NCBI GenBank assembly: GCA_965231145.1
Contig: OZ246420.1
Span: 450,001-482,000 of the forward strand
Length of the DNA stretch: 32,000 bases
DNA from: Candidatus Saccharimonadota bacterium
GTDB taxonomy: Bacteria > Patescibacteriota > Gracilibacteria > Absconditabacterales > Absconditicoccaceae
Reading direction: 5' to 3'
Numbering within the stretch: position 1 is the stretch's first letter; the number at the start of each line of letters is the position of its first letter. Positions 1-27,364 of the stretch are shown in pieces. A program made the position numbers and the translations under genes. The notes beneath the pieces are model-generated. The model was not told where the DNA came from. It did not search any database and saw nothing but the letters and a program-made list of their open reading frames with translations.

Positions 1-84
1 CTCGACATGTCCTCCATGCCCAAAAGTACCGTCGACATATACTTTTCGGTCGACAGGCATAGAAGCAAGAGTCTCTTTCGCCAT
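1..84 (-). CDS. rsmH: 16S rRNA m4C1402 methyltransferase RsmH, first 28 codons only (gene runs off the window)
   Basis: The minus-strand ATG at 82-84 reads MAKETLASMPVDRKVYVDGTFGHGGHVE. VDGTFGxGGH is the N-terminal SAM-binding motif of RsmH/MraW. Confidence 0.55.
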   Translation of the reverse strand, partial: MAKETLASMPVDRKVYVDGTFGHGGHVE

Positions 85-133
85 AACTGGCTGGTGACGT
101 AACATAAGGCTAACTAACTTATAAAGTTGTAGA

Positions 134-196
134 GCAATTGGCAGCTAGCAGTTAGCATATCCCCTGCTAGTTGCTACCTGCTATAATCTACCTGCC
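134..196. repeat. Word-repeat imperfect palindrome (family A)
   Basis: Sequence is gcaattggcagctagcagttagca..tgctagttgctacctgctataatctacctgcc. The 17-mer gcaattggcagctagca (134-150) recurs exactly, inverted, at 19584-19600. The 14-mer tgctataatctacc (179-192) recurs at 24800-24813. Confidence 0.6.
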
Positions 197-237
197 ATAT
201 TAGTGAAATAAGGCTCAAAAACCACTATAAGTTACAA

Positions 238-265
238 TTGACTTAGATAAGCCGCTCAGTACAAT
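238..265 (+). promoter_or_regulatory. Sigma70-like promoter P1 (TTGACT-N16-TACAAT)
   Basis: TTGACT lies at 238-243 and TACAAT at 260-265. Promoter and leader are near-duplicates of those at 773-866. Confidence 0.6.
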
Positions 266-272
266 TTAACCC

Positions 273-286
273 TGTCGATCTCGACA
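273..286. promoter_or_regulatory. Perfect palindrome TGTCGATCTCGACA just downstream of the -10; candidate operator
   Basis: The 14-nt dyad sits right after the P1 -10. The equivalent position after P2 (808-821) carries TGTCAATATCGACA. Confidence 0.3.
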
Positions 287-325
287 AGCGTCATTAAAAA
301 TTAATCACAAATCTAAACACATTTT

Positions 326-703
326 ATGAAAAAAGCATTCTTATTGTTTGCAGCAAGCTTACTAACTACTACATGCGCTGTAGCCGCAAAACGCATCACA
401 GTGGATGCGGCTATGAAGCAAATCGCATCTGTTCTTCCGCAGCAGGGACCATCTACAAAATGGCTCTACATTGAAGCGGGTAAAGAGACCTGTAAAGTGT
501 TCAATAGCACAGACGGTCATACTCATGAATTTACCCTTTCTCATGTCGTATGGAAATACGATGAATTGACAGGGAAAATACAGAAAAACACTTCTGTATC
601 TAAGAAAGCGGCTCGTACTATCCGGCGTTTTTGTCGTGATATAAGCGAAAACGACTATTCCGTCGAGTATGTCTCTAAAGCGCAGGCTGAATGTATGAAC
701 TAA
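326..703 (+). CDS. Small secreted orphan protein (125 aa)
   Basis: Intact ORF with N-terminal signal peptide MKKAFLLFAASLLTTTCAVAA and a TAA stop. It has its own promoter and terminator, and I recognise no family. Confidence 0.7.
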   Translation: MKKAFLLFAASLLTTTCAVAAKRITVDAAMKQIASVLPQQGPSTKWLYIEAGKETCKVFNSTDGHTHEFTLSHVVWKYDELTGKIQKNTSVSKKAARTIRRFCRDISENDYSVEYVSKAQAECMN

Positions 704-720
704 TGCTAATATATTATCAA

Positions 721-750
721 TCAGCCGGTCCTCCGGCTGATTTTTCTTTT
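721..750 (+). terminator. Rho-independent terminator
   Basis: Hairpin tcagccgg-tcc-tccggctga followed by a T-run. Confidence 0.8.
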
Positions 751-772
751 CTAAAAGAAAAACCAGTTATCA

Positions 773-800
773 TTGACTTATATTGCTGGCTCCGTACAAT
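773..800 (+). promoter_or_regulatory. Sigma70-like promoter P2 (TTGACT-N16-TACAAT)
   Basis: TTGACT lies at 773-778 and TACAAT at 795-800. The leader is homologous to the P1 leader and includes the dyad at 808-821. Confidence 0.6.
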
Positions 801-866
801 TTACTCCTGTCAATATCGACACGTTCATTAACATTTATCACGAATCAAAAACACCAAACAATTACA

Positions 867-1793
867 ATGAAAAAAACACTATTGTTGCTCGTTTTCGCCT
901 TTGCGCTTTGTTCTAATACTGCTACAGCGCAGCAGGACTCTCTGCTTGATATTATGAGGGGGAGAATGAAAGAATATAAAGACTCTACTTACACCATCGA
1001 AGTTTCGCCGCAAACGGCTGACTTCATGCAATTGCTGACGGCTATTACGTTGGCTGGCGATGTGCCTCCCAAAATAAATTACTTCTTACAGCCTAGTAGT
1101 TCAACACGATTTATTATTGTGCCCCGTATGTTCAAATACCCAGCATTCATAGGCGCTGATTATTATGAGTGTGATTATCGGTACGGTCAGCTAAAGTGGC
1201 ATTACAACATGCATAACCAATCATGTGAAAATGTTACTATTCGTGTGAAAAGCGGTAATAGGTATACGCAGCGCGGTCAGGTGCTTGATATACAGGAGGG
1301 CCTCTACTCTTTGCTTGAGGACGTTAAACATAAACGTTTATACGAAATTCCTGTTATAGACGTTCGCAAGAAGAGTGAGTTGGAAATACTCCCTTCACCA
1401 GTCTTTACTTTTTTGGAACCTGAATACTTTAAGTATGATAGTGTCTTGGGCTTCTATAGCACCACTGTTCAGCCTGATGTAGAGGGTTCGGCTGAGCTTT
1501 TTCAGCTACTTAACAGCATTACTATGAAAACAAAAGGAAGTATCAGTAAAAATACCTACCAACTTGTTACACCTACGAAAGATATTCCTATTCAGGAGGT
1601 AATAGGAAGTTACTATTATCAGTTCGGAGATATAAGTTGGTATGCAGAACATGGTAAGGTTACTCAAGTACATATCTATACTTCCAATATCTCGAAACTT
1701 ATGGTGGAGGGTATTTTGTATCAGCATGTTCTGTCACTTGTGGCAAACGACATTCAGCAGGACAAATGGACGGTCGACAACCGTAAATTATAA
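867..1793 (+). CDS. Secreted orphan protein (308 aa) with an internal two-fold domain repeat
   Basis: The ATG at 867 gives the signal peptide MKKTLLLLVFAFALCSNTATAQQ; the track ORF starts upstream at a TTG. Two halves share the pattern T.EV.P...F.QLL.AIT ... YY..G..W...V.I. TAA stop. Confidence 0.7.
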   Translation: MKKTLLLLVFAFALCSNTATAQQDSLLDIMRGRMKEYKDSTYTIEVSPQTADFMQLLTAITLAGDVPPKINYFLQPSSSTRFIIVPRMFKYPAFIGADYYECDYRYGQLKWHYNMHNQSCENVTIRVKSGNRYTQRGQVLDIQEGLYSLLEDVKHKRLYEIPVIDVRKKSELEILPSPVFTFLEPEYFKYDSVLGFYSTTVQPDVEGSAELFQLLNSITMKTKGSISKNTYQLVTPTKDIPIQEVIGSYYYQFGDISWYAEHGKVTQVHIYTSNISKLMVEGILYQHVLSLVANDIQQDKWTVDNRKL

Positions 1794-1818
1794 ACATTCC
1801 ATATCATTTCAATAATAG

Positions 1819-1848
1819 ATCAGCTGGGCTTTCCCGGCTGATTTTTTG
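1819..1848 (+). terminator. Rho-independent terminator
   Basis: Hairpin atcagctggg-ctt-cccggctgat followed by tttttt. Confidence 0.75.
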
Positions 1849-1861
1849 TTTGAATCGGGTC

Positions 1862-1889
1862 TTGCTTTGGCTATCAAAACACTTATTAT
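1862..1889 (+). promoter_or_regulatory. Weaker promoter P3 (TTGCTT-N16-TATTAT)
   Basis: It has the same 16-nt spacing as the four TTGACT promoters and lies between the terminator at 1819-1848 and the ATG at 1916. Confidence 0.4.
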
Positions 1890-1915
1890 TCTCTTGTTCA
1901 TCAAATGTAGATCAT

Positions 1916-2059
1916 ATGGAAAAAGAATCACTCGTCATTGAAATTAAGAATCATCCCTCCTATTTGCTGGATGTTCATGGTACATATGAGTACCTTATGG
2001 GTTTGGATATAACCAAGCTTCAGGAGATAGTAGCTGAGCAAAAACAGAAGGCAACATAA
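1916..2059 (+). CDS. Very small orphan ORF (47 aa from the ATG)
   Basis: Reads MEKESLVIEIKNHPSYLLDVHGTYEYLMGLDITKLQEIVAEQKQKAT. It is bracketed by promoter-like and terminator-like signals, which is the only support for it. Confidence 0.35.
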   Translation: MEKESLVIEIKNHPSYLLDVHGTYEYLMGLDITKLQEIVAEQKQKAT

Positions 2060-2071
2060 GAGAAAAAGGAC

Positions 2072-2100
2072 GCAACCGAGCATCTGCCGGTTGTTTTTCT
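2072..2100 (+). terminator. Rho-independent terminator
   Basis: Stem caaccg ... cggttg followed by ttttt. Confidence 0.6.
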
Positions 2101-2137
2101 TTATCGGATAAAACGCGGACTTTATCAAAAGCTCTGC

Positions 2138-2165
2138 TTGACTTCCTTGTTTTCGTAAGTATTAT
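2138..2165 (+). promoter_or_regulatory. Sigma70-like promoter P4 (TTGACT-N16-TATTAT)
   Basis: TTGACT lies at 2138-2143 and TATTAT at 2160-2165. The leader carries the hairpin cgtca-N10-tgacg and then a CA-rich tract up to the ATG. Confidence 0.55.
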
Positions 2166-2237
2166 TACTTGCGTCAGCCGTATTGGTGACGTTGAACCTT
2201 AAAAATCATTACAACAAACAGATTAAATCAACATTTT

Positions 2238-3023
2238 ATGAGAAAAATCACAAACAGGACCTTTCTAGTTTCGGAAGAAAAAAAGGAAACTTTACATGTA
2301 TTTACTGTGGGAGATAAGAAATTTTGTCTTCATCAAGTTTTGCGTGAAGAGTCGGGTGAGAGCATAATAATCAATAATATCTATATTGTACCGTACGAGT
2401 TTGAGTGCAGTTTTAAGTCATTGTATGTATTCTTGGAAGTCGCTCAGCCCACATCCTATTTGTCTATCGTGGGCAAAGATGATAAAAGCATTACTGCGAT
2501 TGGTCGTGGCTTCGAAAACTATGATGCGTATAAGACTTTTTCTGAAAAAATGAAGATAAAACCTTCATCAGAGGAAGCATATCAATTCTTTGACGCACTT
2601 GAAGGTACTAACAAGATTTTGTTCGCAATGATGATTGCGGACTTACCTGATGAAATGATAGTTCCTTTCCAGCCAGCAGATAGTGTGCCCGTTTCCCCAA
2701 AGCCTCCACTTGATACGCCAGTTTCATTTGAAGTATTGCTTAAAGCATATAATCACAAACCTGATTCAACACTTCTAATGAACATAAGCTATCACCTTGC
2801 TTATTCTGATAAGGGAGATGTCACCTATGATGTCCTGAAATATGCTCATTCTGATGTTCTTCAGGTAGCGTTCAACTGGGTTAACCCGCCCCGTCTTACT
2901 CCTGAAGAAATAGTGAAAATATGTCAAACTCGCAGGGATGAAACAATAACAAGGCATGCCCTGGCCAGTAATCGGCTTGATCCGAGCCAAGCAAATATAG
3001 TATATGCGCTTCTATCATCTTAA
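2238..3023 (+). CDS. Orphan protein (261 aa), paralogous in part to the 3206-3607 product
   Basis: Intact ORF with a TAA stop. It shares VFTVGDKKFCLHQVLREESGE / ENYDAYKTFSEKMKIKPSSEE with VFMVDSRVYTAEMSILQQEGE / TDYASYAAFCTAHDSKPVEEE of the next cassette. Confidence 0.65.
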   Translation: MRKITNRTFLVSEEKKETLHVFTVGDKKFCLHQVLREESGESIIINNIYIVPYEFECSFKSLYVFLEVAQPTSYLSIVGKDDKSITAIGRGFENYDAYKTFSEKMKIKPSSEEAYQFFDALEGTNKILFAMMIADLPDEMIVPFQPADSVPVSPKPPLDTPVSFEVLLKAYNHKPDSTLLMNISYHLAYSDKGDVTYDVLKYAHSDVLQVAFNWVNPPRLTPEEIVKICQTRRDETITRHALASNRLDPSQANIVYALLSS

Positions 3024-3043
3024 GTGTATATGCTAAATATCTT

Positions 3044-3072
3044 AAAGCCCTGCTATATGCGGGGCTTTTTTT
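3044..3072 (+). terminator. Rho-independent terminator
   Basis: Hairpin aagccctgc-tatat-gcggggctt followed by tttttt. Confidence 0.75.
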
Positions 3073-3108
3073 ACTCGTGAAATACTATTGTTACTATTCT
3101 TTTCTTAT

Positions 3109-3136
3109 TTGACTTTCATAGATCCGCGAGTATAAT
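3109..3136 (+). promoter_or_regulatory. Sigma70-like promoter P5 (TTGACT-N16-TATAAT)
   Basis: TTGACT lies at 3109-3114 and a consensus TATAAT at 3131-3136. The leader hairpin is tcaatag-N9-ctattga. Confidence 0.65.
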
Positions 3137-3205
3137 ATATACAAGTCAATAGTCTAAAAATCTATTGATGACACAAAATCTAAAAACACAAAAACACACA
3201 ATATT

Positions 3206-3607
3206 ATGAACAAACAATTCTCTATTGTTATGCTTACCCCAGGGTTCGCATCAAACAATTTCCGTAAAGATGTTTTTATGGTAGACAGCCGGGTTTACAC
3301 TGCTGAAATGTCAATTCTTCAGCAAGAAGGCGAAATAGTGTGCCATATAAAGCATGAAGGCGTTATTATAATGACTCTCTATTATGCTTCTAAAGAGCAT
3401 GCTATGGAAGCTGCTACTATTACAGACTATGCGAGCTATGCTGCTTTTTGTACAGCGCATGACTCTAAGCCAGTGGAAGAAGAAAAGGGCCTGAAACTCC
3501 TTATGACTAACGGGGTAACTATCCCGCAGCTCATAGAGCTTTTCAATCCTCATCTTACTGATGCTTACTGGGCCGCCTTGGAAGAGGTGAAAGCAAACAT
3601 CAACTAA
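3206..3607 (+). CDS. Orphan protein (133 aa)
   Basis: Intact ORF with a TAA stop, its own promoter and terminator, and partial paralogy to the 2238-3023 product. Confidence 0.65.
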   Translation: MNKQFSIVMLTPGFASNNFRKDVFMVDSRVYTAEMSILQQEGEIVCHIKHEGVIIMTLYYASKEHAMEAATITDYASYAAFCTAHDSKPVEEEKGLKLLMTNGVTIPQLIELFNPHLTDAYWAALEEVKANIN

Positions 3608-3631
3608 TGTACATGCGGTTTCTCGCATGTG

Positions 3632-3663
3632 GTCAGCGGGTTATTATCTGCTGACTTTTTTTG
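3632..3663 (+). terminator. Rho-independent terminator, preceded by a second hairpin at 3611-3630
   Basis: Stem gtcagc ... gctgac followed by ttttttt. Just upstream is acatgcg-gtttct-cgcatgt. Confidence 0.75.
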
Positions 3664-3700
3664 TTATTTAAATCCAACTGGAAATAGATACTCTGTGTGT

Positions 3701-4741
3701 ATGAATTACGAGCGCTTTGAGCAAGCATGAAAGAAAATATTTTTGGTAGATATGAAGCAGGATAAGACGGCTTCTGGTTTTTCGTCGTTGGCTGATGGTG
3801 GGATTCGTAAGATGCTTGCTACAGGTAAGAAAGTATTGATCATTGCCAATAAGAAATGATATGCCACGGGTATGCTGTGCGATGACTGCGGGTATATTCC
3901 CAAATGCGACCACTGTGACATTCCTGTCGCGTTTCATCAAGATGAGAACCAGCATCTGTACGGTATTTGTCATATCTGCAAGAAGCACTACCCTGCATTT
4001 GGCGAATGTCCGCAATGCCGCTGACACAATATTCATCTCTATGGAAAAGGCGTGCAGAAACTGGAGACGATTTTGGGTAAAGAGTTTGGTACGAAGAAGA
4101 TCCTGACGATTGAGTCTGAAACCGCTGGTAGTATGCCGAAGGTAAAAAAGATCTTGCAGCAACTGCCTGAGACACAGATCATTATTGGTACATCTCTCCT
4201 CATGACTCCTCCGGCAGGTCGAAAGCCAGATCTTGTGGTGGTCATGAACGCTGATAGCTCGCTACATATTCCTGACTACAAATCACATGAAAAAGCATTT
4301 TCTACTCTCAAGACGATTATTGATAATTATCCCGATAATATCATTGTCCAATCATATCACGTAGACAATCCCGCGATACGCTTTGCATGCAGCGGTGATA
4401 CGGACGCGTTCCGCGTCCGAGAGGATCAATTTCGCAAAGATCATAGCTATCCTCCATATAGTCAGCTCGCGGTGCTTTTGTTCAAAAATGAGATCGAACA
4501 GAAGATGTTTACGACAGTCAACAAACTCTATCAAGAACTTCTGTTTCTCAATGAGCAGCAAAAAGCCGGCATCGAAATCTATGCGACGCCGCCACTTGTC
4601 TACAAGATGCACGATAAGTACAGATATAACATTGTGCTCAAAGGCAAAGAACTTCGTCCTTTCCTTGACCGTGCATTTGACCAACTCAACATCTTTTGAC
4701 GCGGCTTCAAGATAGACCGGATGCCGGAATCACTGATTTAA
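3701..4741 (+). CDS. priA: Primosomal protein N-prime (PriA), C-terminal piece only (346 aa)
   Basis: Table 25 joins 3701-4051 to track ORF 4052-4699 and reads on to the TAA at 4739-4741. Four in-frame TGAs lie at 3728, 3857, 4022 and 4697. Recognisable features are LVDMK, NKK-G-YA, four CxxC pairs (CDDC, CDHC, CHIC, CPQC), YPPYSQL and a C-terminal KIDRMPESLI. Nothing upstream of LVDM is present here, and there is no Shine-Dalgarno sequence. Confidence 0.75.
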
Positions 4742-4756
4742 ATAATACCTTATTGT

Positions 4757-4784
4757 AGGACAGGATTATTCCTGTCCTTTTTGT
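4757..4784 (+). terminator. Rho-independent terminator
   Basis: Hairpin aggacagg-attatt-cctgtcct followed by ttttt. Confidence 0.75.
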
Positions 4785-4796
4785 TTGAATAAAAAT

Positions 4797-4820
4797 AAAA
4801 AAACCCCGGACATGCCGGGA
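4797..4820 (-). terminator. Probable terminator for the convergent minus-strand gene
   Basis: Short GC hairpin (ccccgg/ccggg) with an A-run on the plus strand, which is a T-run on the minus strand. Confidence 0.45.
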
Positions 4821-4824
4821 GTTA

Positions 4825-5382
4825 CTAATATTTTTCTGCTTTTGTTATGATCCCATCATTACCAACTCCCTGTAGGGAAGTCGAATAATAGATTTCATTA
4901 TCAGCCCCTAGCCAGACGTGTGCCATATAAGGTACGAGTACTTTACAGGCAACATAATTGTCCAATTCAAGTGACTGAAGTTCGTATGGTGTGCCATCAT
5001 AGCCTGCCGATAGTTTCTTGTCAGACTGCTCTACAAAAAACGAGAGTTGTGTATAGCCGTTTTCGGGTGCTTGAGTTTTTTCGTAGTAAACAACTTTACA
5101 TAATGGATTAGTAATCTCATAATACGTAAAGTCGCCTGAACCAGCCCAATAAGGCCCTTCTCTAGATTCTGCTACTCTTTTTTTCATGTAATACCCCATC
5201 CCTTTAACGGCTTTCACTACTTTATTCATGAGGTCTTGTTCTTCAGAACGAATGCCCAATGAAGCCATGCATACTGTTTTTTTATCCTGCATATATTGTA
5301 TAGCTTTGAATGCTAATGCATGAATACGTGCCTGTTCTGGAGTGAGTTTTTCTTGTGGGAATAATGATATATGTGGTGTCAT
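4825..5382 (-). CDS. Orphan protein (185 aa)
   Basis: Intact ORF from ATG to TAG. I recognise no motif. Confidence 0.55.
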   Translation of the reverse strand: MTPHISLFPQEKLTPEQARIHALAFKAIQYMQDKKTVCMASLGIRSEEQDLMNKVVKAVKGMGYYMKKRVAESREGPYWAGSGDFTYYEITNPLCKVVYYEKTQAPENGYTQLSFFVEQSDKKLSAGYDGTPYELQSLELDNYVACKVLVPYMAHVWLGADNEIYYSTSLQGVGNDGIITKAEKY

Positions 5383-5442
5383 AAGAGTTTTATTTTGTTT
5401 GTTGACATTTTATCATTTTTGACCGACAAAGCAATGCAAAAA

Positions 5443-6510
5443 TTAATAATACTGATCGGGAAATCTTGTTCCATCTGTATCGATAATATCTTTTCTTTTT
5501 ATTCCCCCTTTATATTCATAATTTTCCCATTCAGTCAATTTTTTTTCAAAATTTTTCGTTCAAAGATCCCCAGGACTCATTCATATGAGTCTTGTATTTA
5601 TACGAGGGTTGTTGTGATATGCACGGATGAAATCCTCTATGAGAGCCTGTTTCTCTGCATTGCCAGTCTGTCGCCTATCCACATATGCTTTTACATCATC
5701 AATTCCACTGAAATAACAGAAAAACGCCTCGAGAAACCACTGTTGGCTTGAGCCTTCTCCCCGTGAAGGTAACTTTCAAAGCTTTTGTATATGTAATGCT
5801 TCGGATAGTTCATTCAGTATTTCTTGAGGAAGTCACGTAGATCTAATATCTTGTTCCAAAGCATTTTTTAGATGAGAAAAATCTCCAAAGTCATTGACTT
5901 GTGATTCCCAACCATTGTGAATACAAAAGCTATGTGCGTCTCCTAAGGCTCTCTCCTTTGCTTCTTGCTGGGTCAATTTTTCGCCAGCCTGCATAAAATC
6001 ATTACGATAGTAGTCATACATGCTGTTATATGTATTTTTATATTTTACTGCAGTTTTTATAATGTTATTCAATAATCCCGAGAGAGACGCTCTTGAATAT
6101 CCAAGAGATAGTGATCCAAATCTCGGAAACCTTTTATTCCCTTTATTTTGTATATAAAAACCATAGCTGTCTTCTTGCATCTTAGCATTGGTAGTTACTA
6201 TTTCTTTAATCACCCTTGTATATCAGTTTGTATCAACAAGAATCTGTTTAAGTCGATATAGCAGATCTCTTTTTATACCGATTTTTAACAGAGCATAGAT
6301 ATGTGTTCTAGGAAGTCATGTTACTATTAAACTCTGTTCTATTTCCTGTAAAACCCCTGTTATCTTAAGAACAGATTGCAGATTGTCTTTGTTCTTTTTC
6401 AGTAAATTATCTATGTATGGCGAAAATTCTGCAGCATTACCAGAAAATTGAGCTTGTTCAAAAGCTGTCTTTAAGGTGTCATAGGTAAATTTCTCTGATC
6501 AATGCATCAT
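5443..6510 (-). CDS. Orphan protein (355 aa) visible only in table 25
   Basis: Track ORF 5833-6213 extends in frame both ways through 7 TGAs (6499, 6316, 6223, 5833, 5776, 5581, 5560). It runs from the ATG at 6508-6510 to the TAA at 5443-5445. I checked every codon and found no TAA or TAG. Confidence 0.6.
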
Positions 6511-6633
6511 GTTGGAAGATTATACTCATGTGATAATACATGTCAATGTGTTAGACGTAGTAAAAGTCTTCTAGAATTACACAAGCAAATCAATAGTTTA
6601 TAGAACGATTGTTTCATTTTTGTAATTCATTTC

Positions 6634-8931
6634 ATGGATATAAAGCAATATATAAGCGGACAGTTGAACGCAGAGCAGACAGGTGCAGCCCTTCATACTG
6701 ATACATCATCACTCATCCTTGCGGGTGCGGGTTCCGGAAAGACAAGAGTGCTCACCTATAAGATAGCATATCTTTTGTATGAGAAAAAAATAAAACCAGA
6801 CCAGATCTTGGCGGTTACTTTCACCAACAAAGCTGCAAAGGAGATGAAAGAACGTCTTGTGAAAATTTCAGAAGAAATTTCGACAACTCAAAACTCAAAT
6901 CACAAAACTCAAAACTCCCCCGCCGAATCAGTCATGGATTTTGATTCATTGGTTTCTGGAGTTCAGGAGGCTACCTCAGTTGCCTCTTCTTCACTCCCTC
7001 ATTTCAATGCTACTTCATTCAAATGGATAGGAACCTTTCACGGTATGTTTCTTCGTTTTCTTAAAGAAGAGATGAAGCATGCTGAAGGCTTTGGGTATAA
7101 CGGAAGCTTTGGTGTCTATGATGAGCAGGAAGCGCAGTCTGTCATGAAAGATATCATCAAGCAGCTCAAGATGGAAGAAGATGTCGAGCTTAGAGAGGTA
7201 AGATCATTTATTTCAAAACTGAAAAGTCAGGGTATTACTGCGAAGCAGTTTGGTCATGGTAACGATGGCTACGAGCAAACCATGGGTATGATCTATGAGC
7301 TTTATGAAAAAAAACTCAGGGAAAATAATAGTTGTGACTTTGATGATCTGTTGCTCCTTCCCTATCTTATCCTCAAGAAATATCCAGAGATTGCTCAGCG
7401 CTGGCAAAAGAAATTTTCATATATTCTTGTCGATGAGGCGCAGGACACAAACTGGATTCAATTCGAACTCATGAAACTACTGACAGCCGGTGGTAGCAAT
7501 ATCACCTTCATCGGTGATGATTACCAAAGTATTTACCGCTGGCGCGGTGCCGTCATGGAAAACTTCCTCCAGGTAAAAAGGATACGGCCGGATATTGAGA
7601 TCTATAAGCTCCAGACAAATTATCGTTCTCGTCCACACATTGTGAACGCAGGTAATTTCATCATTAAAAATAATAAGAACCAGTACGATAAGACGGTCGT
7701 TCCGCACCGTTCTGGGGAAGAAAAGATTATGATTTTTAACCACGGAGATGAAACTGATGAGGCTATGACACTCATCGATCTTATGAAGAAGATGAAGACT
7801 GATAAAAATAAGTCACGAGCAGACTTCGCTATCCTCTATAGGACGAATGCACAGTCAGCGATCTTTGAGCAGGTGCTTTTGCAGGAAGCTATCCCCTATA
7901 AGGTCTTTGGATGATTTAAGTTCTTTGAAAGAAAAGAAGTAAAAGACATTATCTCATATTTGAAATACTTATTGAATCCCAGAGATACTGTAGGTCTTAA
8001 GAGAATCATCAATACGCCAAAGAGAAAGATATGATCGGATAGCGTTGCTAAACTTGAGGAATATGCGGCTGCGCATGATGTCTTATTGTCAGATGTGGTG
8101 GAACAGATCGACACGCAGCCGGTGACTATCGGGCCTGCGACACAAAAAGCAGTCAGCCAATTTGCAACTTCTATGAAGTTTCTCAGGCAGGCCGCAGCAG
8201 GACTCTCCCCCGCAAAGCTTATAGAGCAGATCGTGAAGACGATCAAATATAGAGACTATTTGATCGATGCAGAAGGTCGTGAAACAGGCGAGGAAAAGTT
8301 TGAAAATATCGGTCAGCTTATCAATATCGCCACAAGATACGACAGCGATGAGGTCGAAGAGCTCCAAAATGGCATGGTGCTTCTGACGCAGTTTCTCGAG
8401 GAAGTGTCGTTGATGACGGATATCGAAGATAATAATGAGTGAGAGTTAGAAGCAGTGAAACTGATGAGTATCCATTCGAGTAAGTGACTGGAGTTTCCTG
8501 TTGTCTTCATCGTAGGCCTGGAAGAAAATATCTTCCCATTGGCAAAGGCAGTGTTTGAGGAAGCTGAGCTTGAAGAGGAAAGACGTCTCATGTATGTTGC
8601 TATCACACGTGCAAAAGACCATCTCTTTATGTCTCATGCAAATAGCCGTAAACAGTGGTGACAAACTAAGTATAACGAGCCATCACGTTTCATTGAAGAG
8701 ATTCCCGAAGAACTGAAGAAAATGTTTGATCTGACTGCGGCGTCAGGAGCCACCAGAGCAACGAGCCGTTATGCGGTACAAACTACCCTCGAAGAAGGCG
8801 ATGTAGTCAAACATAAACTCTTTGGTATGGGTGTGGTCATCGAAGTATGGCGTGACACCGCAGTCGTCAGATTCCAAAACGAAAAGTTCGGTGTCAGAAA
8901 GATAGAAGCAAGATTCTTAGAAAAGAAATAA
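6634..8931 (+). CDS. pcrA: ATP-dependent DNA helicase PcrA/UvrD (765 aa)
   Basis: Track ORFs 6634-7914, 8086-8442 and 8722-8931 share one frame and are joined through TGAs at 7912, 8032, 8440, 8485 and 8659. Motifs seen are [42 protein letters not shown] and YVAITRAK. A low-complexity insert lies at about 6883-7010. Confidence 0.9.
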
Positions 8932-8946
8932 GGAAAAACAGTGACC

Positions 8947-8978
8947 AAGAAGAGACGTGCCGCGGCACGTCTCTTCTT
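8947..8978. terminator. Bidirectional terminator between convergent genes
   Basis: Perfect 15-bp stem aagaagagacgtgcc-gc-ggcacgtctcttctt. Confidence 0.8.
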
Positions 8979-8999: not shown

Positions 9000-10529
9000 T
9001 TAGTGAATAGTAATCTGCATATGTACACTCTTCATGCTATTGTTCGTCCCATTTGCCATATAGTAGAGAAGGTTATGCGAGAACGGTGTGTCGAACAGTT
9101 GACTTGTTCTCATCTGGCCTGTAGGATGGGAAATGGTCACATGTTTTGGTGTATAGACTACTCCTCTTGTTGCCCATACCGGAAACACTCCTAAGATGCT
9201 TTTTTCTCTAACAGTTAATTCGATGCCGTATTTCTTTTCGAGTCCTGAAATTTCATCCGTATAGGTAGGTGGCACCGTCATCATATAACTAACACTGACA
9301 TGATATGTTCCTTTTGGGAGCGATGCTATATCCACGATATCTTTTGTTGTATCAATCACCCTTTTCCCTTCACTATTAGTAAAGACAATATTCTTCTTAA
9401 TGAACATATCGATCTTGTTATAACTGCTGTTATAATCCCAGAAGTAGATCTGATCGTCACGGAAACTGGTCGTGAGACCCTGGGTTACCAGTGATTTGGT
9501 AAGGCCTCCTCCGATGTCTTCAAGATAGACGTGCACGTAATTGTTATCCAGGAGATAACGAATATTTTTTATGGTGTTTTTTATAATAGTATCTTTTTGG
9601 CTATTGAGGATCGCTGCCACCTCTTCTAGATAATGCTGCTTCTTGTTTGGGAAGTTTCCTCCACGAATGATATCGGTAGCTGCGTTGGTAAACATCCATT
9701 CTCTGAGCTTCTTGTCAAAGTCAGGGATAAGATCCGCAAACATCTGTGAATTTACAAAGATGACTCCTCTCACCTTCTGGTGAAATGCATTTTCGTAGAT
9801 AGCTTTAATATTTTTTCCATCCATGTCGGTAAAGCCGAACTTATTGGACGCGAGAAATGTAATGGTGCTATCTCATGAAAGAAATGTATTGGTCGCCCAG
9901 TCTGGAGCCTGTACAGTGGCAGATGGATCGATCTTATTTGGATAGTAACTGTCCATGAGCTCAATATTTTTGATCCTTGCATCTTTGATAGTAACGATTG
10001 CAAATGAACCGAAAAACCCACCATTTGGACGTTTTTCTGCACTGTTTTGTAGTACGACGAGATATCTTTGTTCGCGATCTTCGCCTAAAAGAGAAAAGAT
10101 GTCGTTGTTGTATTGAGAAATATCACTGACGAGATCGATGATGCCTGCGTAATCATGGAGACCAAGCTGTTTGAGTTGGTCGGGATGATTTGAAAGGTAT
10201 TGGAGGATGTATTGGATATTACCTTTGTTATCTCTGAGAAAATGATCTTCTTCCTTGTCGTAGCTATGTTTTACAGCATCGATAGACATGAGTAGATTCG
10301 CAGTTTTCTGGTCTACTCCCATAAAATAAAATGCAAGGTCTTCCAGATTATTCGCAAAAAGATCTGTCTTGCTCTCGGCAAAAACAAGTCTTGAAACATT
10401 GTTATAGAGAGAAAAACACGAGAAAGCGAGAAATACTAAAATAACAAAACCCCGATTGACGTGTTTTGCATAAAATTTCCAATCTCTCTTTTCTGGCTTT
10501 TTCCAGCCAAATTCCTTATTTATTTGCAT
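9000..10529 (-). CDS. DUF4012 domain membrane-anchored protein (509 aa)
   Basis: Track ORFs 9873-10529 and 9000-9824 are joined in frame by the TGA at 9873. There is an N-terminal TM helix, and LQNSAEKRPNGGFFGSFAIV matches the DUF4012 signature (QN.aE.R.tGGf.Gs). Confidence 0.8.
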
Positions 10530-10661
10530 TACTCATGTGAGGTGTCTTAAATGAGTATTTGTGAGTGTCGAATTGGGATGATGATTAAGTATATACATAT
10601 CTTTATCCAGCGCAAAAGCAATGTGCACTATGATGCTATAGCCTGGTTAGCGTTGACATAA

Positions 10662-11213
10662 TTATGCTACGGTTTTAAATCAGGTTTCCTCTACTACGGA
10701 ATTGTTCGTCATGCAAAGTTCTCTCATGATCGAAACCATTCCATCGCGTAGATTCTTGCCATTGTCTGTGCTAGCACACTCTTCTATCACATAGGTGAAA
10801 TACCCCAGGTCAAATGCTTCCTGTGCAGTTGCAAAGACACAATCATAAATATCATATCCGACAATATGTACTTCTTCGATGTCATATTCCTGTAGTGCTT
10901 TATGAAGATCTGGATTTCATTTGAAACATGATTTCGTTGTTTTCTCCAGCGGTATTTGTGGTTTGTTAGCAGGAATATATGGGGCAATCATATTTTGATA
11001 GTCAGGATGAGACTTGGGAAATGTCCATTGTGCTTGTTGGTCCCATAGTGCCCCTTCTTCTGTATGGAACGACGCATTCACATAGAGATCATACTCTACA
11101 TACGATAATAATTTCTGAGTATATACAAAAGCTGAAGGCTCCTCTGCCATAAATCATTTCTGAAAATCTACGAGAATCAGTGCTTTGCATCTTCCTGATT
11201 GAGGTATTTTCAT
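10662..11213 (-). CDS. Isochorismatase-family cysteine hydrolase (183 aa)
   Basis: Joined through TGAs at 11154, 10917 and 10680. The D/K/C triad context is LILVDFQK-G-F, KTTKSCF and VGYDIYDCV. TAA stop. Confidence 0.7.
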
Positions 11214-11250
11214 GGTTATATATAGATGAGATAAATTACTTTATTGCTCA

Positions 11251-12420
11251 TTAATTCGGTAGAGCCCATCGTGAACTATACTCATCTGACCATGCAAATG
11301 AAAATGTTGGATCGAAAGGATAAATAAGCTTTCAGTCCAGAGAGATAAGTTTCGCCTGGAGTCCGTCACGAAGGAGAATACATCTTATATTGCTTTGATT
11401 TTTGCCTGCCTCACAGAGCTCTGTTCGACTATGCTGGGTACTTTCTTTGATTGCTCATGCTTTTTGCAAGCATGTATAACTTGTTCCGCACTCTTCATGC
11501 TTCTCACTCGCTTCGGTGATGAGCTGTAATTGTATCTCAAACAGAGCTTTTCACCATGCTCTTTTTGCTTCAGATTCATCTTCGTTTGCAAGATTGGTAT
11601 ATCTGTCGTATCGCAGCGTAGCACTCTTCAAATGCTGTCCGGCTCTTCCATACACCAATGCGGCAAGTGTTGGCGTCAATGCAGGTGCATCATCATGAAA
11701 CGCAGAGATTCTATACTGCTCTGCTGCATGCTCACTGTCAGCAAGATACGTAAAGTAATTAAACGCCATATAATGCGGCAACTCATAGTTCATGCAAGGA
11801 TTTTCGATTTCCATATTTCATTCTGCTCTTTGCTCTTTGCTCTTTCAGTTTAATACTATGAACTCTTCTTCGGTGAGTCCTGTAATAACTTTAATCTTAT
11901 CTTCATTGCATAAATAATATTCTCATTTCTTTGCAAGGCGTATTGCCTCCTCTCGAGACTTTTCCTGCGATTGATTATAATGACCGCTTGCGGTCTCCCG
12001 CTGTAGCGGGGTTTTTGGTAAAGGAATAATGAGTTGTCCAAATATGTATGGATAGTTCCAAAAGGGCGATAAGGTGGTGAGAGAATCGAGAACCGTTGCG
12101 ACGCCATTGTTGTCGAGTGTGTCGGGGTTTGTACCGATGTACTGGATGCTCCCAAGCCATAAGATGTCAGCATAGAGTTGTTGCCGAGGCATGAACTGAC
12201 AGAGCTTTTGGTTTGTATGACAGTATTCGTTATATGCAGGAAGCATGGGGGTTTGGAAAATAGCATGCGGCTTTTGTCTTTGTGTTTCAAGATGTGCGAC
12301 ATACGGCATAGGATTGATGCTTTCAGTCAGATGGCTTGCTTTTTGTGTGCGCACAAAAACACTGTTGTAACTTACAACAAGCGCAAGTGATATGGTTATG
12401 ATTCATACAGATTTCCGCAT
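11251..12420 (-). CDS. Signal-anchored orphan protein (389 aa)
   Basis: Track ORFs 11923-12354 and 11551-11814 plus their flanks form one frame with 7 TGAs. The N-terminus MRKSVGIITISLALVV is hydrophobic. An in-frame ctgctcttt-word module lies at 11821-11848. Every codon was checked through to the TAA at 11251. Confidence 0.6.
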
Positions 12421-12431
12421 ATGAAAGACGT

Positions 12432-12902
12432 CTATCTGCTTCTAAAAGCTTTAATTTCCTTCTCCGCTAATCTTGCCGTATCTTTATCTTTAATAAGCTG
12501 TTTTTTCTCTATTTTCTTCCTCAGTTTGCCGACACCTATTGTTACTTTGATAATTCTGAATTTGTTTTCCCATATTGTAAGCGGGACAATAGAAAGTCAT
12601 GTTTTCGTTGTTGCTGCTGCTATCTTCGCAAGTTCTTTCTGGTTGACCAGCAGTTTTCTTCTCCCTTTTGCTTCGTAGCCTGGCACAGAGTCGAAGCTGG
12701 TTTTGGCATATAGAGGGATATCCATATTGGTAATATACAATTCTTTTGTGTCATAGTCGAGCTTTACGATAGCATCTTTGATGTTTACATTGCTGGTTTT
12801 GATAGACTTCACCTCATGTCACTGCAAAACAATACCAGCTTCATACTCCTGCTGGATATCATAGTCACTATAAGCAAATTTATTCTTGGTGATTACACGC
12901 AT
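12432..12902 (-). CDS. smpB: SsrA-binding protein SmpB (156 aa)
   Basis: YEAGIVLQ-G-HEVKS (TGA at 12819) and KT-G-LSIVPL (TGA at 12597) both sit at conserved SmpB glycines. RRKLLV is present. TAG stop. Confidence 0.85.
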
Positions 12903-12907
12903 GTTAT

Positions 12908-13534
12908 TTACTCAATGATAATAACTTCTCCGTCTTTCAGTGTTTTATAGGCGATAGCATGTTCTTGTAAATATTTTTCCATAATTTCTGTTTTCCTTCA
13001 CATCTCTCAGTCTTTATATGTCGACTTATAGTGAGGTATAACCATATAATCAATTAGTTGTACCCCGGGCTCTATAGATGAACGAATTGTTCCATAAGGA
13101 TTTACTGTAGGATCATCAATAAGTTCCATGCCTTCCAGGGTAGGAGCTAATACGCATACTCCAGCGCTGTCTCCTCCATAAACTAAAGTATGGTTTTCTT
13201 TAGAGAAATTCTGAAGGATAATGTCTAATCCACTAAGTCTCATAGCATCTCTGAGCACATAGGTATTTCCTCACATAACTCGCAGGAGATCAATGTTTCT
13301 AATAAGATCTTCTAATATGTCTTGTTTCGTAAAGTAATCTTGCAGATCTATGATCTCTGTATTTACTGAGAGGGTGTTTTTACACTCATTGATTATGTTG
13401 GTATGTACTTCCTGAATATGAGCAACGCCGTCTTTAGCATTCGGTATAATGCCAATGCGAGCATTCTTTGGAAGCATAGCCTTAAGCTCCTCTATCTTTT
13501 CTCCAAATAAATATGAGCTTAAATACAGTTTCAT
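12908..13534 (-). CDS. Peptidase S51 / type-1 glutamine-amidotransferase-like (dipeptidase E family)
   Basis: Track ORFs 13271-13543 and 13007-13258 are joined in frame. VM-G-GNT (TGA at 13271) and GDSAG (nucleophile Ser) are present, with further TGAs at 13007 and 12998. Confidence 0.75.
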
Positions 13535-26469: not shown

Positions 26470-26563
26470 ATAGGAAAACGTCATAAAAGTTCATAAAGTG
26501 GAAGGTTTATAAAGTTGAAAGTTCAAAGGAATTTTAACTTTATACTTTACAAACTTTATGAAC
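26470..26563. repeat. Word-repeat imperfect palindrome (cataaagt / actttat words) overlapping the priA-N stop codon
   Basis: The 11-nt arm gttcataaagt (26489-26499) is a perfect inverted repeat of actttatgaac (26553-26563). The latter contains the TAA that ends the priA N-terminal piece. Confidence 0.6.
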
Positions 26564-27359
26564 TAAATATTTGTACTCCGGTCATTTCGAGTCTCGCCTC
26601 ATGTAATTGGGCAATTTTTTTCATAATTTCGCGTGTATCGTAGCGAGGATCTTGCTGGCTTTTATAGTATCGTTGGTGACTATCCATAAGCGTAATGAGT
26701 TTAAGATCTTTTCGATCCTGAAATACCTGAGATGATGTACAAATAAGTGTATTTACATGACCCATTTTGATTCCCCATCGAGCTTTGTCTTTCTGCTGCT
26801 GTGTCGAAGTGCTGTTGAGTATGACAATGCCTGATTTTTCAACTATTCCTCGCTTTTCGAGCGTGTTTATCATAGTTCGGACGTCAGGGAAGACGATAAG
26901 TTGTTGTCCCTCCATATTATTTTGAATTTTGAATTCTATATTTTGAATTATTTTTGTATCTGTATCTTGTATCTGTATCTTAGGGAAAAAAGGCTTCTTT
27001 TTGACCGTAAGTTCTTTCTTAAATAAGTCTGCTAATTCTCCTGTTACAAATAACTTTACGACATTTTTATAAGATGTATAATACTCCTTCACCATTCGTC
27101 TTATCAATTCTACAGTTTCTTTGCTGAGAAATCATTTATGATGCAAGGTTAGCTCTTCAGTAATTTTCGATTTCGGAGTCAATTCTGCTCTCTGCTCTTT
27201 GAATTTTGATTTCCCCTCATTTCCTCGTTTCCTCGTTTCCTCGATAACAAGAAACATATCGTGAGAGCCAACTAATAAGTCTCACACCAAAAAATTATCT
27301 TGGTCTGTTCGACAAAGCTTATCTCCGCCATATCGTCACTGGAAGGCGTATAATAACAT
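26556..27359 (-). CDS. priA: Primosomal protein N-prime (PriA), N-terminal piece only (267 aa), helicase motifs degenerate
   Basis: Track ORF 26556-27107 extends upstream through TGAs at 27132, 27282 and 27336 to the ATG at 27357-27359. LIRRMVKEYYTSY and QQLIVFPDV...RWGIKMGHVNTLICTSSQVF...LMDSHQRYYKSQQDPRYDTRE follow the PriA pattern. There is no GxGKT, and DEEH is replaced by MDSH. The ORF stops where the 3701-4741 piece begins. Confidence 0.65.
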
Positions 27360-27364
27360 ACTTA

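What the first reader, a model, noticed from the sequence alone, without database searches (positions are those of the whole stretch)
3701..4741. priA is split: its C-terminal half sits here on the plus strand, 22 kb from the N-terminal half on the minus strand
The 3701-4741 ORF begins almost exactly at the PriA position ..NYERFEQAGKKIFLVDMK. It carries the four CxxC zinc-finger pairs and the C-terminal domain. The 26556-27359 ORF on the minus strand carries the N-terminal DNA-binding and first helicase lobe, and it stops at ..LEMTGVQIFSS, where SATPSxES normally lies. The two pieces abut with essentially no residues missing. A single inversion of about 3665-26555 would place them head to tail on one strand and rebuild one gene. 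Both pieces remain open over 346 and 267 codons and contain 4 and 3 UGA-Gly codons. This argues either for a very recent rearrangement or for a tolerated two-piece PriA. The C-terminal piece has no visible SD and follows directly after the terminator of the last orphan cassette. The stop codon of the N-terminal piece lies inside a palindromic repeat (26553-26563).
Basis: partly seen in the sequence, partly recalled or inferred. Interest (0 to 1): 0.66.

Follow-up and report, generated by a model that had tools for sequence, protein, structure and literature searches.

The report
PriA naturally split into two genes
In this SR1/Absconditabacteria genome and every relative examined, the replication-restart protein PriA is encoded by two separate, conserved genes that have also lost their ATP-using helicase motifs, so the "broken" gene is an old, selected two-piece design, not a recent accident or assembly error.

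Summary
Under genetic code 25, 3701-4741(+) encodes the PriA C-terminal half: helicase lobe 2, four CxxC pairs and the PriA_C domain. 26556-27359(-) encodes the N-terminal half: the 3' DNA-binding domain and lobe 1. Joined, they align collinearly to solved PriA structures with no residues missing at the junction.

It is not a recent inversion, a relic or a misassembly.
- Both junctions recur at 100% identity in independent single-run assemblies.
- No inverted repeats link the two sites.
- The C piece is a stand-alone ~346-aa gene in at least 119 species genomes. The N piece is a stand-alone ~225-290-aa gene in more than 140 clusters at 50% identity.
- No fused form and no adjacent pair was found in about 160 loci. 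One relative has the halves on different contigs, at least ~300 kb apart.
- Both halves are under purifying selection: dN/dS 0.02-0.11 for C, median 0.14 for N.

It keeps the aromatic-rich DNA-binding loop, the zinc region and the C-terminal domain.

Best reading: a two-subunit PriA "pseudohelicase" that recognises stalled forks and recruits the replicative helicase without ATP. The interaction of the halves and this function are inferred.

UvrB in the same genome is also split between its RecA lobes.

The parts
3701..4741 (+). priA-C gene (346 codons plus TAA). It encodes the lobe-1/lobe-2 connector, RecA-like lobe 2 with the embedded Cys-rich region, and the PriA C-terminal domain.
   Evidence: ORF under code 25. 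Pfam PriA_C. Collinear alignment to PriA structures. The AF2 model of orthologue P0001 has PriA as its top 9 Foldseek hits, E down to 5e-23. About 85 homologues of ~346 aa cover it 100%.
26556..27359 (-). priA-N gene (267 codons plus TAA). It encodes the 3' DNA-binding domain, a helical linker and a RecA-like lobe 1 without a P-loop. There is no winged-helix domain.
   Evidence: ORF under code 25. The family profile hits only PriA in the PDB, E 2.3e-7. The AF2 model of orthologue P0093 has PriA as its top 9 Foldseek hits, TMq up to 0.65, including the WH-deletion PriA 6DCR. The 150 best representatives are all 287 aa or shorter.
3878..4018 (+). Cys-rich (zinc) region: four CxxC pairs, C-piece residues 60-106.
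   Evidence: Regex match. All eight Cys are invariant in the C family and in canonical PriAs.
4454..4690 (+). PriA C-terminal domain (PF18074), C-piece residues 252-330.
   Evidence: Pfam E 2.1e-7, 32.1 bits against a cutoff of 26.9.
4313..4339 (+). Site where helicase motif VI (QxxGRxGR) should lie. It reads TIIDNYPDN, with a deletion and no arginines.
   Evidence: Alignments A2 and A5: motif VI is present in canonical PriAs and deleted in every split-family member. No GRxGR match.
26640..26669 (-). Aromatic-rich loop YYKSQQDPRY (N-piece residues 231-240). It is the most conserved element of the N family.
   Evidence: Invariant Y231 Y232 Q235 Q236 D237 P238 R239 Y240. It aligns with the 'sYKq..(p)rY' loop of canonical PriAs. 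Role in fork DNA contact: review PMC5778457.
26676..26687 (-). Degenerate motif II: MDSH in place of DE(E/S)H (N-piece residues 225-228).
   Evidence: Alignment A5 column by column. Family consensus is x-D-S/x-H. No DExH match.
26907..27002 (-). Variable linker (N-piece residues 120-151) occupying the place of the Walker A P-loop and its helix. There is no GxxxxGK[ST].
   Evidence: Alignment A5: GxTGSGKT of canonical PriAs faces a gap and unrelated residues. The linker length varies by 0-30 aa in the family and never holds a P-loop. Regex negative.
26565..26582 (-). Motif III position (GSATP in PriA), which reads TGVQIF here. The N piece ends two residues later.
   Evidence: Alignment A5. All 74 complete N ORFs in metagenomic loci stop 0-7 codons after the profile end.
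3631..3666 (+). Terminator-like hairpin plus T run, 35 nt upstream of the priA-C start codon.
   Evidence: (z = -4.2).
4757..4788 (+). Terminator-like hairpin plus T run, 16 nt after the priA-C stop. With the upstream hairpin, it makes priA-C look like a self-contained unit.
26488..26564 (-). 77-nt AU-rich imperfect hairpin. Its 5' arm contains the priA-N stop codon. It lies between priA-N and the AP-endonuclease-2 gene.
   Evidence: MFE -22.4 kcal/mol, z = -4.98, 0 of 200 shuffles as stable.

Best explanation
Shown. PriA in this lineage (candidate division SR1 / Absconditabacterales, UGA = Gly) is encoded by two independent genes. priA-N encodes the 3' DNA-binding domain and a RecA-like lobe 1 that lacks the P-loop. 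priA-C encodes lobe 2 with the two-zinc Cys-rich region, plus the C-terminal domain. The cut lies immediately after the motif III position, at the boundary between the two RecA-like lobes. It is at the same residue in all members. Each piece has its own conserved start or stop codon. Both are under purifying selection, and they are never fused or adjacent in the roughly 160 loci examined. The family has lost Walker A, the DExH acidic pair, motif III and motif VI. It keeps the aromatic-rich DNA-contacting loop, all eight zinc ligands and the C-terminal domain.

Inferred. The two polypeptides are translated separately and reassemble non-covalently into a PriA-shaped heterodimer. In solved PriA structures, the 3'BD is tightly packed against the helicase domain, and the SSB-binding pocket is formed jointly by lobe 1, the 3'BD and the CTD. 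These are elements that now sit on different chains. The complex cannot hydrolyse ATP, so it is a natural 'pseudohelicase'. It acts as a structure-specific scaffold that recognises abandoned forks or D-loops and recruits the replicative helicase. This is the part of PriA function that survives in E. coli priA300 (K230R) and in Deinococcus PriA. Loss of the ATP site, which is built at the lobe 1/lobe 2 interface, probably removed the need to keep the lobes covalently linked and made fission at exactly this boundary tolerable.

The 22-kb opposite-strand layout in this window is simply the local arrangement in this clade.
For: Identity and collinearity.

Lineage-wide stand-alone C piece:
- About 85 hits at 38-75% identity, almost all 343-393 aa and covering 100% of the query.
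- 119 species-representative genomes, including complete SR1 genomes CP006913.1, CP060225.1 and MPSQ01000001.1.
- M1 is invariant and the upstream in-frame open stretch is about 10 codons at the median.

Lineage-wide stand-alone N piece:
- 21 hits of 154-255 aa.
- In an exhaustive profile search, the 150 best cluster representatives are all 287 aa or shorter, and 141 have E below 1e-30.
- 114 metagenomic stretches encode a relative; of the 80 loci kept, 74 hold a complete N ORF, and all 74 stop 0-7 codons after the profile end.

Never adjacent or fused:
- 0 of 82 C loci have an N piece within +-10 kb, and 0 of 80 N loci have a C piece.
- With the concatenated query, the nearest single-chain proteins are canonical PriAs at only 21-28% identity.

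Same layout in a relative: on contig SRR32417865_260, C lies at 65038-66078(+) and N at 91275-91967(-). Different contigs in GCA_038211735.1.

Independent assemblies match the window at 100% across both junctions.

Selection:
- dN/dS is 0.02-0.11 for C.
- Median dN/dS is 0.14 for N, range 0.03-0.33 over 144 pairs.
- Identity to the relative (75% and 55%) lies within the 55-92% range of neighbouring housekeeping genes.

Motif loss.

Precedents:
- ATPase-dead PriA K230R supports restart.
- An E. coli suppressor yields near-functional PriA from two segments.
- The SSB site lies between lobe 1, 3'BD and CTD (all three from review PMC5778457).
- Deinococcus PriA lacks ATPase and helicase activity but binds forks and DnaB (PMC4504706).
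Against: - No direct evidence that the two polypeptides interact.
- No expression data. priA-C has no recognisable SD, and no consensus promoter lies between the upstream terminator and its ATG.
- Pfam detects only PriA_C. The 3'BD, DEAD and Helicase_C models do not hit either piece.
- I could not search whole SR1 genomes for an additional canonical priA, so a second copy is not formally excluded.
- ATPase loss is inferred from sequence. A non-canonical nucleotide site cannot be excluded.
- The helicase loader and other restart partners in this lineage are unknown.
Confidence: 0.7

Rival explanations
1. Recent inversion or relic: a single recent inversion of about 3.7-26.5 kb broke an intact priA in this genome, and the halves are decaying pseudogene fragments.
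For: Geometrically, inverting 3665-26555 would place the halves head to tail. The two pieces abut with no residues missing.
Against: - The same start and stop positions occur in more than 100 species-level genomes at 30-75% identity.
- Both halves are under strong purifying selection.
- A relative has the same layout, and another has the halves on different contigs.
- No inverted repeats lie at the putative breakpoints.
- The N piece is followed by the same AP-endonuclease-2, uppS and dnaN genes in genomes where N identity is only 33%.
Confidence: 0.02
2. Assembly artefact, or a population-level invertible segment that restores a contiguous priA in some cells.
For: The halves lie on opposite strands 22 kb apart, which is the signature an inversion or a chimeric join would give.
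Against: - Independent assemblies of runs ERR4405439, ERR4405440 and ERR4405441 reproduce window 1-8975 and 16556-32000 at 100% identity, across both junctions.
- No contig with the alternative junction was found among those carrying the exact N-piece or flanking proteins.
- No inverted repeats or recombinase lie at the boundaries.
- Separate start and stop codons are conserved family-wide.
Confidence: 0.01
3. Two independent proteins: after fission the halves became functionally autonomous and no longer form a PriA-like complex. For example, the N piece could be a small fork or 3'-end binding protein, and the C piece a zinc-finger/CTD adaptor for SSB or DnaB.
For: - The genes are unlinked and lie in variable contexts. 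Only 1 of 68 metagenomic N loci keeps the AP-endo/uppS/dnaN neighbourhood.
- The N piece evolves faster than the C piece: 55% against 75% identity to the relative, and median dN/dS 0.14 against about 0.04.
- With no ATP site left, nothing requires lobe 1/lobe 2 apposition.
Against: - Both pieces co-occur in every genome where both could be looked for: the window, SRR32417865_260, GCA_038211735.1 and the 94,580-bp contig carrying P0005 and P0101.
- The cut removes nothing, and both keep PriA-specific surface elements.
- In solved PriA, the 3'BD packs tightly on the helicase domain, and the SSB pocket needs parts from both halves (PMC5778457).
- E. coli PriA works as two segments only when both are present.
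Confidence: 0.2
4. Protein or RNA trans-splicing, as with split inteins or split introns, rejoins the halves into one chain. Cyanobacterial DnaE is the model.
For: Split genes on opposite strands, far apart, whose products abut exactly are what split-intein genes look like. This comparison is from my own knowledge of Synechocystis DnaE.
Against: - There is no room for intein halves. The N piece ends 2 residues after the motif III position, and 0-7 codons after the profile end in all members.
- The C piece starts with an invariant Met at the next PriA position.
- No Cys, Ser or Thr lies at the +1 position (the sequence is M-N-Y), and no extra ~100-aa or ~35-aa extensions exist.
- Both ORFs have ordinary stop and start codons.
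Confidence: 0.01

Closest known systems
Canonical single-chain PriA (primosomal protein N'; E. coli and K. pneumoniae; PDB 4NL4, 6DGD, 8FAK)
   Same: The domain order is the same: 3'BD, RecA lobe 1 with the aromatic-rich loop, lobe 2 with the two-zinc Cys-rich region, then the C-terminal domain. The alignment is collinear across the junction. Predicted folds of both halves match PriA best.
   Different: It is encoded as two unlinked genes. There is no winged-helix domain. Walker A is deleted, DExH is replaced by xDSH, motif III is lost and motif VI is deleted. Identity to canonical PriAs is only 21-28%.
Deinococcus-Thermus PriA 'pseudohelicase' (Lopper et al. 2015, PMC4504706)
   Same: It is a naturally ATPase/helicase-motif-degenerate PriA retained by a whole lineage. 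In D. radiodurans it still binds fork DNA and DnaB. This gives an experimental precedent for restart function without ATP hydrolysis.
   Different: Deinococcus PriA is one polypeptide and keeps a recognisable P-loop with GKT changed to GRT. Here the P-loop segment is gone altogether, motif VI is deleted, and the protein is split in two. The origin appears independent (unrelated phylum); this is an inference.
E. coli two-segment PriA suppressor and priA300 (K230R), as described in review PMC5778457
   Same: [quoted passage not shown] K230R abolishes ATPase and helicase activity but supports restart. Together these show that both peculiarities of the SR1 protein are compatible with function.
   Different: The E. 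coli split lies in the flexible winged-helix linker, not between the RecA lobes. It arose in the laboratory, its segments are encoded adjacently, and it keeps ATPase activity. The SR1 split is natural, ancient and unlinked, and it is combined with motif loss.
Naturally split protein genes in reduced genomes (e.g. Nanoarchaeum equitans split reverse gyrase and other split genes) and the split-intein DnaE of cyanobacteria (own knowledge, not checked here)
   Same: One ancestral protein is encoded by two distant genes, sometimes on opposite strands, in a small genome.
   Different: There is no intein here (tested, not met). I know of no earlier report for PriA, and four literature searches found none.

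Membership tests
PriA (primosomal protein N', replication restart protein) | Overall homology and collinear domain order | tested here: met
   Concatenated N+C against PriA structures: one stretch, E about 4e-27. It covers 62-87% of the query in full-length PriAs. Alignment A5.
PriA (primosomal protein N', replication restart protein) | N-terminal 3' DNA-binding domain | tested here: inconclusive
   Pfam PF17764 does not hit. The AF2 model has a beta-rich domain at residues 1-62, and whole-length Foldseek alignments to PriA span 249-294 columns for a 230-aa query, TMq up to 0.65. The binding-pocket residues were not examined.
PriA (primosomal protein N', replication restart protein) | SF2 helicase motifs I (Walker A), II (DExH), III (SAT) and VI (QxxGRxGR) | tested here: not met
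   All four are absent or degenerate in the window and in every family member. Regex for GxxxxGK[ST], DExH and GRxGR is negative. Pfam DEAD, ResIII and Helicase_C do not hit, although they hit all full-length PriAs.
PriA (primosomal protein N', replication restart protein) | Aromatic-rich loop in lobe 1 | tested here: met
   YYKSQQDPRY is invariant in the N family and aligned to the PriA loop.
PriA (primosomal protein N', replication restart protein) | Cys-rich region with four CxxC pairs (two zinc sites) inside lobe 2 | tested here: met
   C60/63/69/72/90/93/103/106 are invariant.
PriA (primosomal protein N', replication restart protein) | PriA C-terminal domain (PF18074) | tested here: met
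   E 2.1e-7, 32.1 bits against a cutoff of 26.9.
PriA (primosomal protein N', replication restart protein) | Single polypeptide | tested here: not met
   There are two genes 21.8 kb apart on opposite strands. They are never fused in about 160 loci or in the 150 best cluster representatives.
PriA (primosomal protein N', replication restart protein) | Fork or D-loop binding and loading of the replicative helicase | not testable with these tools
   This needs biochemistry or genetics.
PriA pseudohelicase (Deinococcus-Thermus type) | PriA homologue with non-consensus Walker A and B, retained by a whole lineage | tested here: met
   Motif loss is family-wide, under purifying selection. Definition from PMC4504706.
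PriA pseudohelicase (Deinococcus-Thermus type) | Measured absence of ATPase and helicase activity with retained DNA binding | not testable with these tools
   Only sequence inference is available here.
Split-intein (trans-splicing) gene pair | N-intein appended to the N piece, C-intein preceding the C piece, and a nucleophile (Cys/Ser/Thr) at +1 | tested here: not met
   There are no extra residues at either end, and the C piece starts M-N-Y.
Invertible DNA segment or recombinase-mediated gene switch | Inverted repeats at both boundaries, a nearby site-specific recombinase, and both orientations present in the population | tested here: not met
   No inverted repeat pairs about 3.6 kb with about 26.5 kb. 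No recombinase domain was found in the neighbouring ORFs scanned. Independent assemblies show one orientation only. The halves are unlinked in other genomes.

The most novel reading that the evidence does not exclude
Fission of SF2-type DNA-repair and replication proteins exactly between their two RecA-like lobes may be a general, selected trait of Absconditabacteria. PriA is split with its ATP site lost. UvrB is split with all ATPase motifs kept, so its ATP site would have to be assembled in trans from two polypeptides. For PriA, assembly of the two halves around fork DNA could replace the ATP-driven and conformational gating that single-chain PriA uses to encircle the lagging-strand template. 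That would give a minimal, energy-free, two-subunit restart factor.
Probability: 0.2. Interest if true: 0.8.

Novelty: new variant of a known kind. Interest (0 to 1): 0.6.

Why it matters
PriA is the near-universal bacterial gatekeeper of replication restart, and its helicase motifs are conserved almost everywhere. Until now the Deinococcus-Thermus phylum was the one described exception.

Here an entire candidate phylum-level lineage with ~1-Mb genomes keeps PriA in a form that is both cut in two at the lobe 1/lobe 2 boundary and stripped of every ATPase motif. Both halves are nevertheless under strong purifying selection.

This is a natural experiment defining the minimal PriA. It says that fork recognition (3'BD plus the aromatic loop), the zinc region and the C-terminal domain are what selection retains. 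It also says that covalent continuity and ATP hydrolysis are dispensable.

It gives biochemists a ready-made two-subunit system for mapping which half contacts DNA, SSB and the helicase or loader in bacteria that lack PriB and DnaT.

It matters practically as well. Annotation pipelines call these genes 'hypothetical' or truncated, and completeness or pseudogene metrics for code-25 genomes would miscount them. The parallel UvrB split suggests the phenomenon is broader than PriA.

Tried and rejected
I worked around this with database orthologues (A3, A4) and with UGA-free neighbouring ORFs.
2. I suspected that the 564-aa gene abutting the C piece in L002 was the N half, which would mean an adjacent split. 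BLASTP shows no similarity, E above 1.
3. Looking up the code-11 fragment window:4052-4699 found nothing.
4. A search for inverted repeats joining the two sites found none among 102 pairs.
5. Split intein or trans-splicing was rejected because there are no extra residues.
6. My first impression was that N, AP-endonuclease-2, uppS and dnaN synteny is universal. It holds only for the window's clade and one deep branch (window, L003, L090, L004/L005). Only 1 of 68 metagenomic N loci has it. A first count with BLAST and strict geometry was re-done with HMMs and gave the same result.
7. Literature searches for PriA with Absconditabacteria, Gracilibacteria, the Candidate Phyla Radiation or 'split gene' returned nothing relevant.
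8. No sigma-70 consensus promoter lies between the upstream terminator and the priA-C start, so how priA-C is transcribed is unresolved.
Full report
**Genetic code and ORFs.** The window is read with UGA as a sense codon. Removing TGA from the stop set doubles the summed length of ORFs of at least 100 codons, from 10,878 to 21,884. One UGA of the C piece (residue 53) sits on the Gly of the 'NRRG' motif, which is invariant in canonical PriAs. Under table 25, 3701-4741(+) is a 346-codon ORF with four UGA codons. 26556-27359(-) is a 267-codon ORF with three. Both end in TAA.

**Are the two ORFs the halves of PriA?** Yes.
- The C piece carries four CxxC pairs (residues 60-106) and hits Pfam PriA_C above threshold.
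- The N piece has no Pfam hit. A profile of its family hits only PriA among all PDB sequences (E 2.3e-7; next best 0.11), over E. coli PriA residues 241-340.
- The concatenated N+C sequence aligns to PriA structures in one uninterrupted HMMER stretch (query 152-580, E about 4e-27). It also aligns to full-length PriAs from the protein collection over 62-87% of its length.
- In alignment A5 the N piece ends two residues after the position of motif III (GSATP), and the C piece's Met occupies the next PriA position. Nothing is missing and nothing is added.
- AlphaFold models of orthologues of each half (P0093, pLDDT 82.6; P0001, pLDDT 83.3) have PriA structures as their nine best Foldseek matches. 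For the N half these include the winged-helix-deletion PriA 6DCR, which fits the absence of a WH domain.

**Is it an artefact or a recent break?** No.
- Contigs assembled independently from three sequencing runs match the window at 100% identity. L089 covers window 1-8975, including the terminator and priA-C junction. L006 and L007 cover 16556-32000, including the junction of priA-N with the AP-endonuclease gene. L008 covers 25946-28964.
- No inverted repeat links the two sites.

**Comparative evidence for the C piece.**
- A search with the C piece returned about 85 homologues from 38 to 75% identity. Almost all are 343-393 aa and cover 100% of the query. Some are named Absconditabacterales.
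- A scan of species-representative genomes found relatives in 119 genomes. The 80 loci kept include the complete SR1 genomes CP006913.1, CP060225.1 and MPSQ01000001.1.
- In these loci the in-frame open stretch upstream of the conserved Met is about 10 codons at the median. None contains N-like sequence.

**Comparative evidence for the N piece.**
- N-piece homologues are likewise stand-alone proteins of 154-255 aa.
- In an exhaustive profile search of 1.84 billion cluster representatives, the 150 best hits are all 287 aa or shorter, and 141 have E below 1e-30.
- All 74 complete N ORFs in metagenomic loci stop 0-7 codons after the end of the profile.

**Linkage of the two pieces.**
- 0 of 82 C loci carry an N piece within 10 kb, and 0 of 80 N loci carry a C piece.
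- With the concatenated query there is a sharp gap between split-family pieces (at least 41% identity) and the nearest single-chain proteins. Those are canonical PriAs of 632-845 aa at 21-28% identity, with the full Pfam set.

**Layout in relatives.**
- On contig SRR32417865_260 (240,818 bp; C 75% and N 55% identical), the C piece lies at 65038-66078(+) and the N piece at 91275-91967(-). That is about 25 kb apart on opposite strands, as in the window.
- In GCA_038211735.1 the pieces are on different contigs. N lies at about 195.6 kb of a 406,560-bp contig. C lies at about 113 kb of a 676,678-bp contig. They are therefore at least about 300 kb apart.
- The gene that abuts the C piece there is unrelated to PriA.
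- The order N, AP-endonuclease-2, uppS, dnaN is shared by the window, L003, L090 and L004/L005, but by only 1 of 68 metagenomic N loci. Elsewhere the N piece sits in other neighbourhoods.
- The two pieces thus behave as ordinary independent genes. An inversion of 3665-26555 would formally join them, but the separation long predates this genome.

**Selection.**
- Nei-Gojobori estimates under code 25 give dN/dS of 0.02-0.11 for the C piece in about 29 species pairs.
- For the N piece the median is 0.14, with a range of 0.03-0.33 over 144 pairs with dS below 1.5.
- Identity between the window and its relative is 75% for C and 55% for N. This lies inside the 55-92% range of the neighbouring housekeeping genes: dnaN 92%, ftsA 87%, uvrD 81%, and an M3 peptidase 56%.
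- These are not relics.

The family has lost the helicase engine.
- Where canonical PriAs have G(V/I)TGSGKT, the N family has a linker of variable length (0-30 residues) with no P-loop.
- DE(E/S)H is replaced by x-D-S/x-H.
- GSATP reads TGVQIF.
- The motif VI segment Q-x-x-GRAGR is deleted in every C-family member.

By contrast, the aromatic-rich loop (YYKSQQDPRY) is invariant, all eight zinc ligands are invariant, and the C-terminal domain is retained.

**Mechanistic reading.** Several points from the literature bear on function.
- According to the review PMC5778457, the aromatic-rich loop contacts DNA at the fork junction.
- The 3'BD packs tightly on the helicase domain.
- The SSB-binding site lies between lobe 1, the 3'BD and the CTD.
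- PriA K230R has no ATPase yet supports restart in vivo and in vitro.
- An E. coli suppressor producing PriA as two segments, split at residues 154/157, is almost fully functional when both segments are present.
- Deinococcus radiodurans PriA is a measured pseudohelicase that still binds forks and DnaB (PMC4504706).

I therefore infer that the SR1 pieces are translated separately and reassemble into a PriA-shaped heterodimer. That heterodimer would work as an ATP-independent fork-recognition and helicase-recruitment scaffold. Loss of the inter-lobe ATP site is probably what made fission at this boundary tolerable.

The interaction, the lack of ATPase activity and the restart role are inferences. 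The main rival is that the halves now act independently (about 0.2). A split intein is excluded by the lack of any extra residues.

**Local signals.** priA-C is bracketed by terminator-like hairpins at 3631-3656 and 4757-4778. It has no obvious SD or consensus promoter in the 44 nt before its ATG. How it is transcribed is open. The priA-N stop codon lies in the 5' arm of a 77-nt AU-rich hairpin at 26488-26564.

**Novelty.** Four full-text searches found no report of a split PriA or of PriA in this lineage. Public records call the pieces 'hypothetical protein', or for a few C pieces 'primosomal protein N''. I classify it as a new variant of a known kind. It is a PriA homologue and works, by inference, like the Deinococcus pseudohelicase. 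It fails the 'SF2 helicase motifs' and 'single polypeptide' features of canonical PriA.

**In passing.** UvrB in the same genome is also cut between its RecA lobes.
- The N part lies at 13555-15033(-) and has Walker A, DESH and SATP.
- The C part (Helicase_C, UvrB and UVR domains, with motif VI intact) is a separate gene after valS, just beyond the right end of the window.
- The same arrangement is seen in relatives, and the two parts are never fused in the fetched loci.

Noticed in passing
window 13555-15033 (-); partner gene at L006 1792-2634 (+), which is about 2.5-3.3 kb beyond window position 32000 on the minus strand: UvrB is also split between RecA lobe 1 and lobe 2 into two genes about 20 kb apart. 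The N part (492 aa) has Walker A GATGTGKT, DESH, SATP and UvrB_inter. The C part (~273 aa) has Helicase_C, UvrB and UVR domains, with motif VI QIIGRAARN intact, and lies right after valS. Unlike PriA, all ATPase motifs are kept. Separate N or C ORFs also occur in L003, L010, L012, L051 and L108/L109, and none is fused. Both halves carry a similar 'DDL..I...KK' helix at the junction, which may be a duplicated junction.
   Followed up: partly
window 326-703, 2238-3023, 3206-3607 (+) and 4825-5382 (-): Four ORFs flanking priA-C contain no UGA codon at all and have no Pfam hit. Most other genes in the window use UGA 1-10 times. They could be recently acquired or fast-evolving lineage-specific genes. 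In relative L001, the region upstream of priA-C also holds unannotated ORFs.
   Followed up: no
window 26488-26564 (-): A 77-nt AU-rich imperfect hairpin (MFE -22.4 kcal/mol, z = -5) begins inside the last codons of priA-N and fills most of the spacer before the AP-endonuclease-2 gene. It has no T run and few G-C pairs, so it is not a classical intrinsic terminator. Its function is unknown.
   Followed up: partly
window 21008-21085, 26955-26999, 30016-30086: A GATACAGATAC-type repeat occurs as inverted pairs in two intergenic regions: downstream of ftsA, and between the aaRS-HD gene and miaA. One arm also occurs inside priA-N, in the variable linker that replaces the Walker A segment (codons ~120-151, '...IQIQDTDTKI...'). 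The closest relatives P0092-P0097 lack this ~30-codon stretch, while more distant ones have a linker of similar length.
   Followed up: no
window 27797-29995 (-): A class II aminoacyl-tRNA synthetase (tRNA_anti-codon plus tRNA-synt_2; the sequence looks LysRS/AsnRS-like) is fused to a C-terminal HD-domain module, giving 732 aa. The orthologue in L003 is 867 aa and additionally hits DUF2000 and HD.
   Followed up: no
window 19583-20980: My greedy code-25 ORF picker chose a long antisense ORF on the + strand here (465 codons, 7 UGA). The real gene is ftsZ on the minus strand, by synteny with L003 16387-17595 and the Tubulin/FtsZ_C Pfam hits there. This is a reminder that with only two stop codons, long spurious antisense ORFs are common in these genomes.
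   Followed up: partly
L140 7872-9950 (+), upstream of its priA-N at 10001-10714: In some SR1 lineages priA-N directly follows a 693-aa ORF. To my eye its N-terminal sequence looks RecG-like; I ran no search on it. If so, it would be a different DNA-repair neighbourhood from the one in the window.
   Followed up: no
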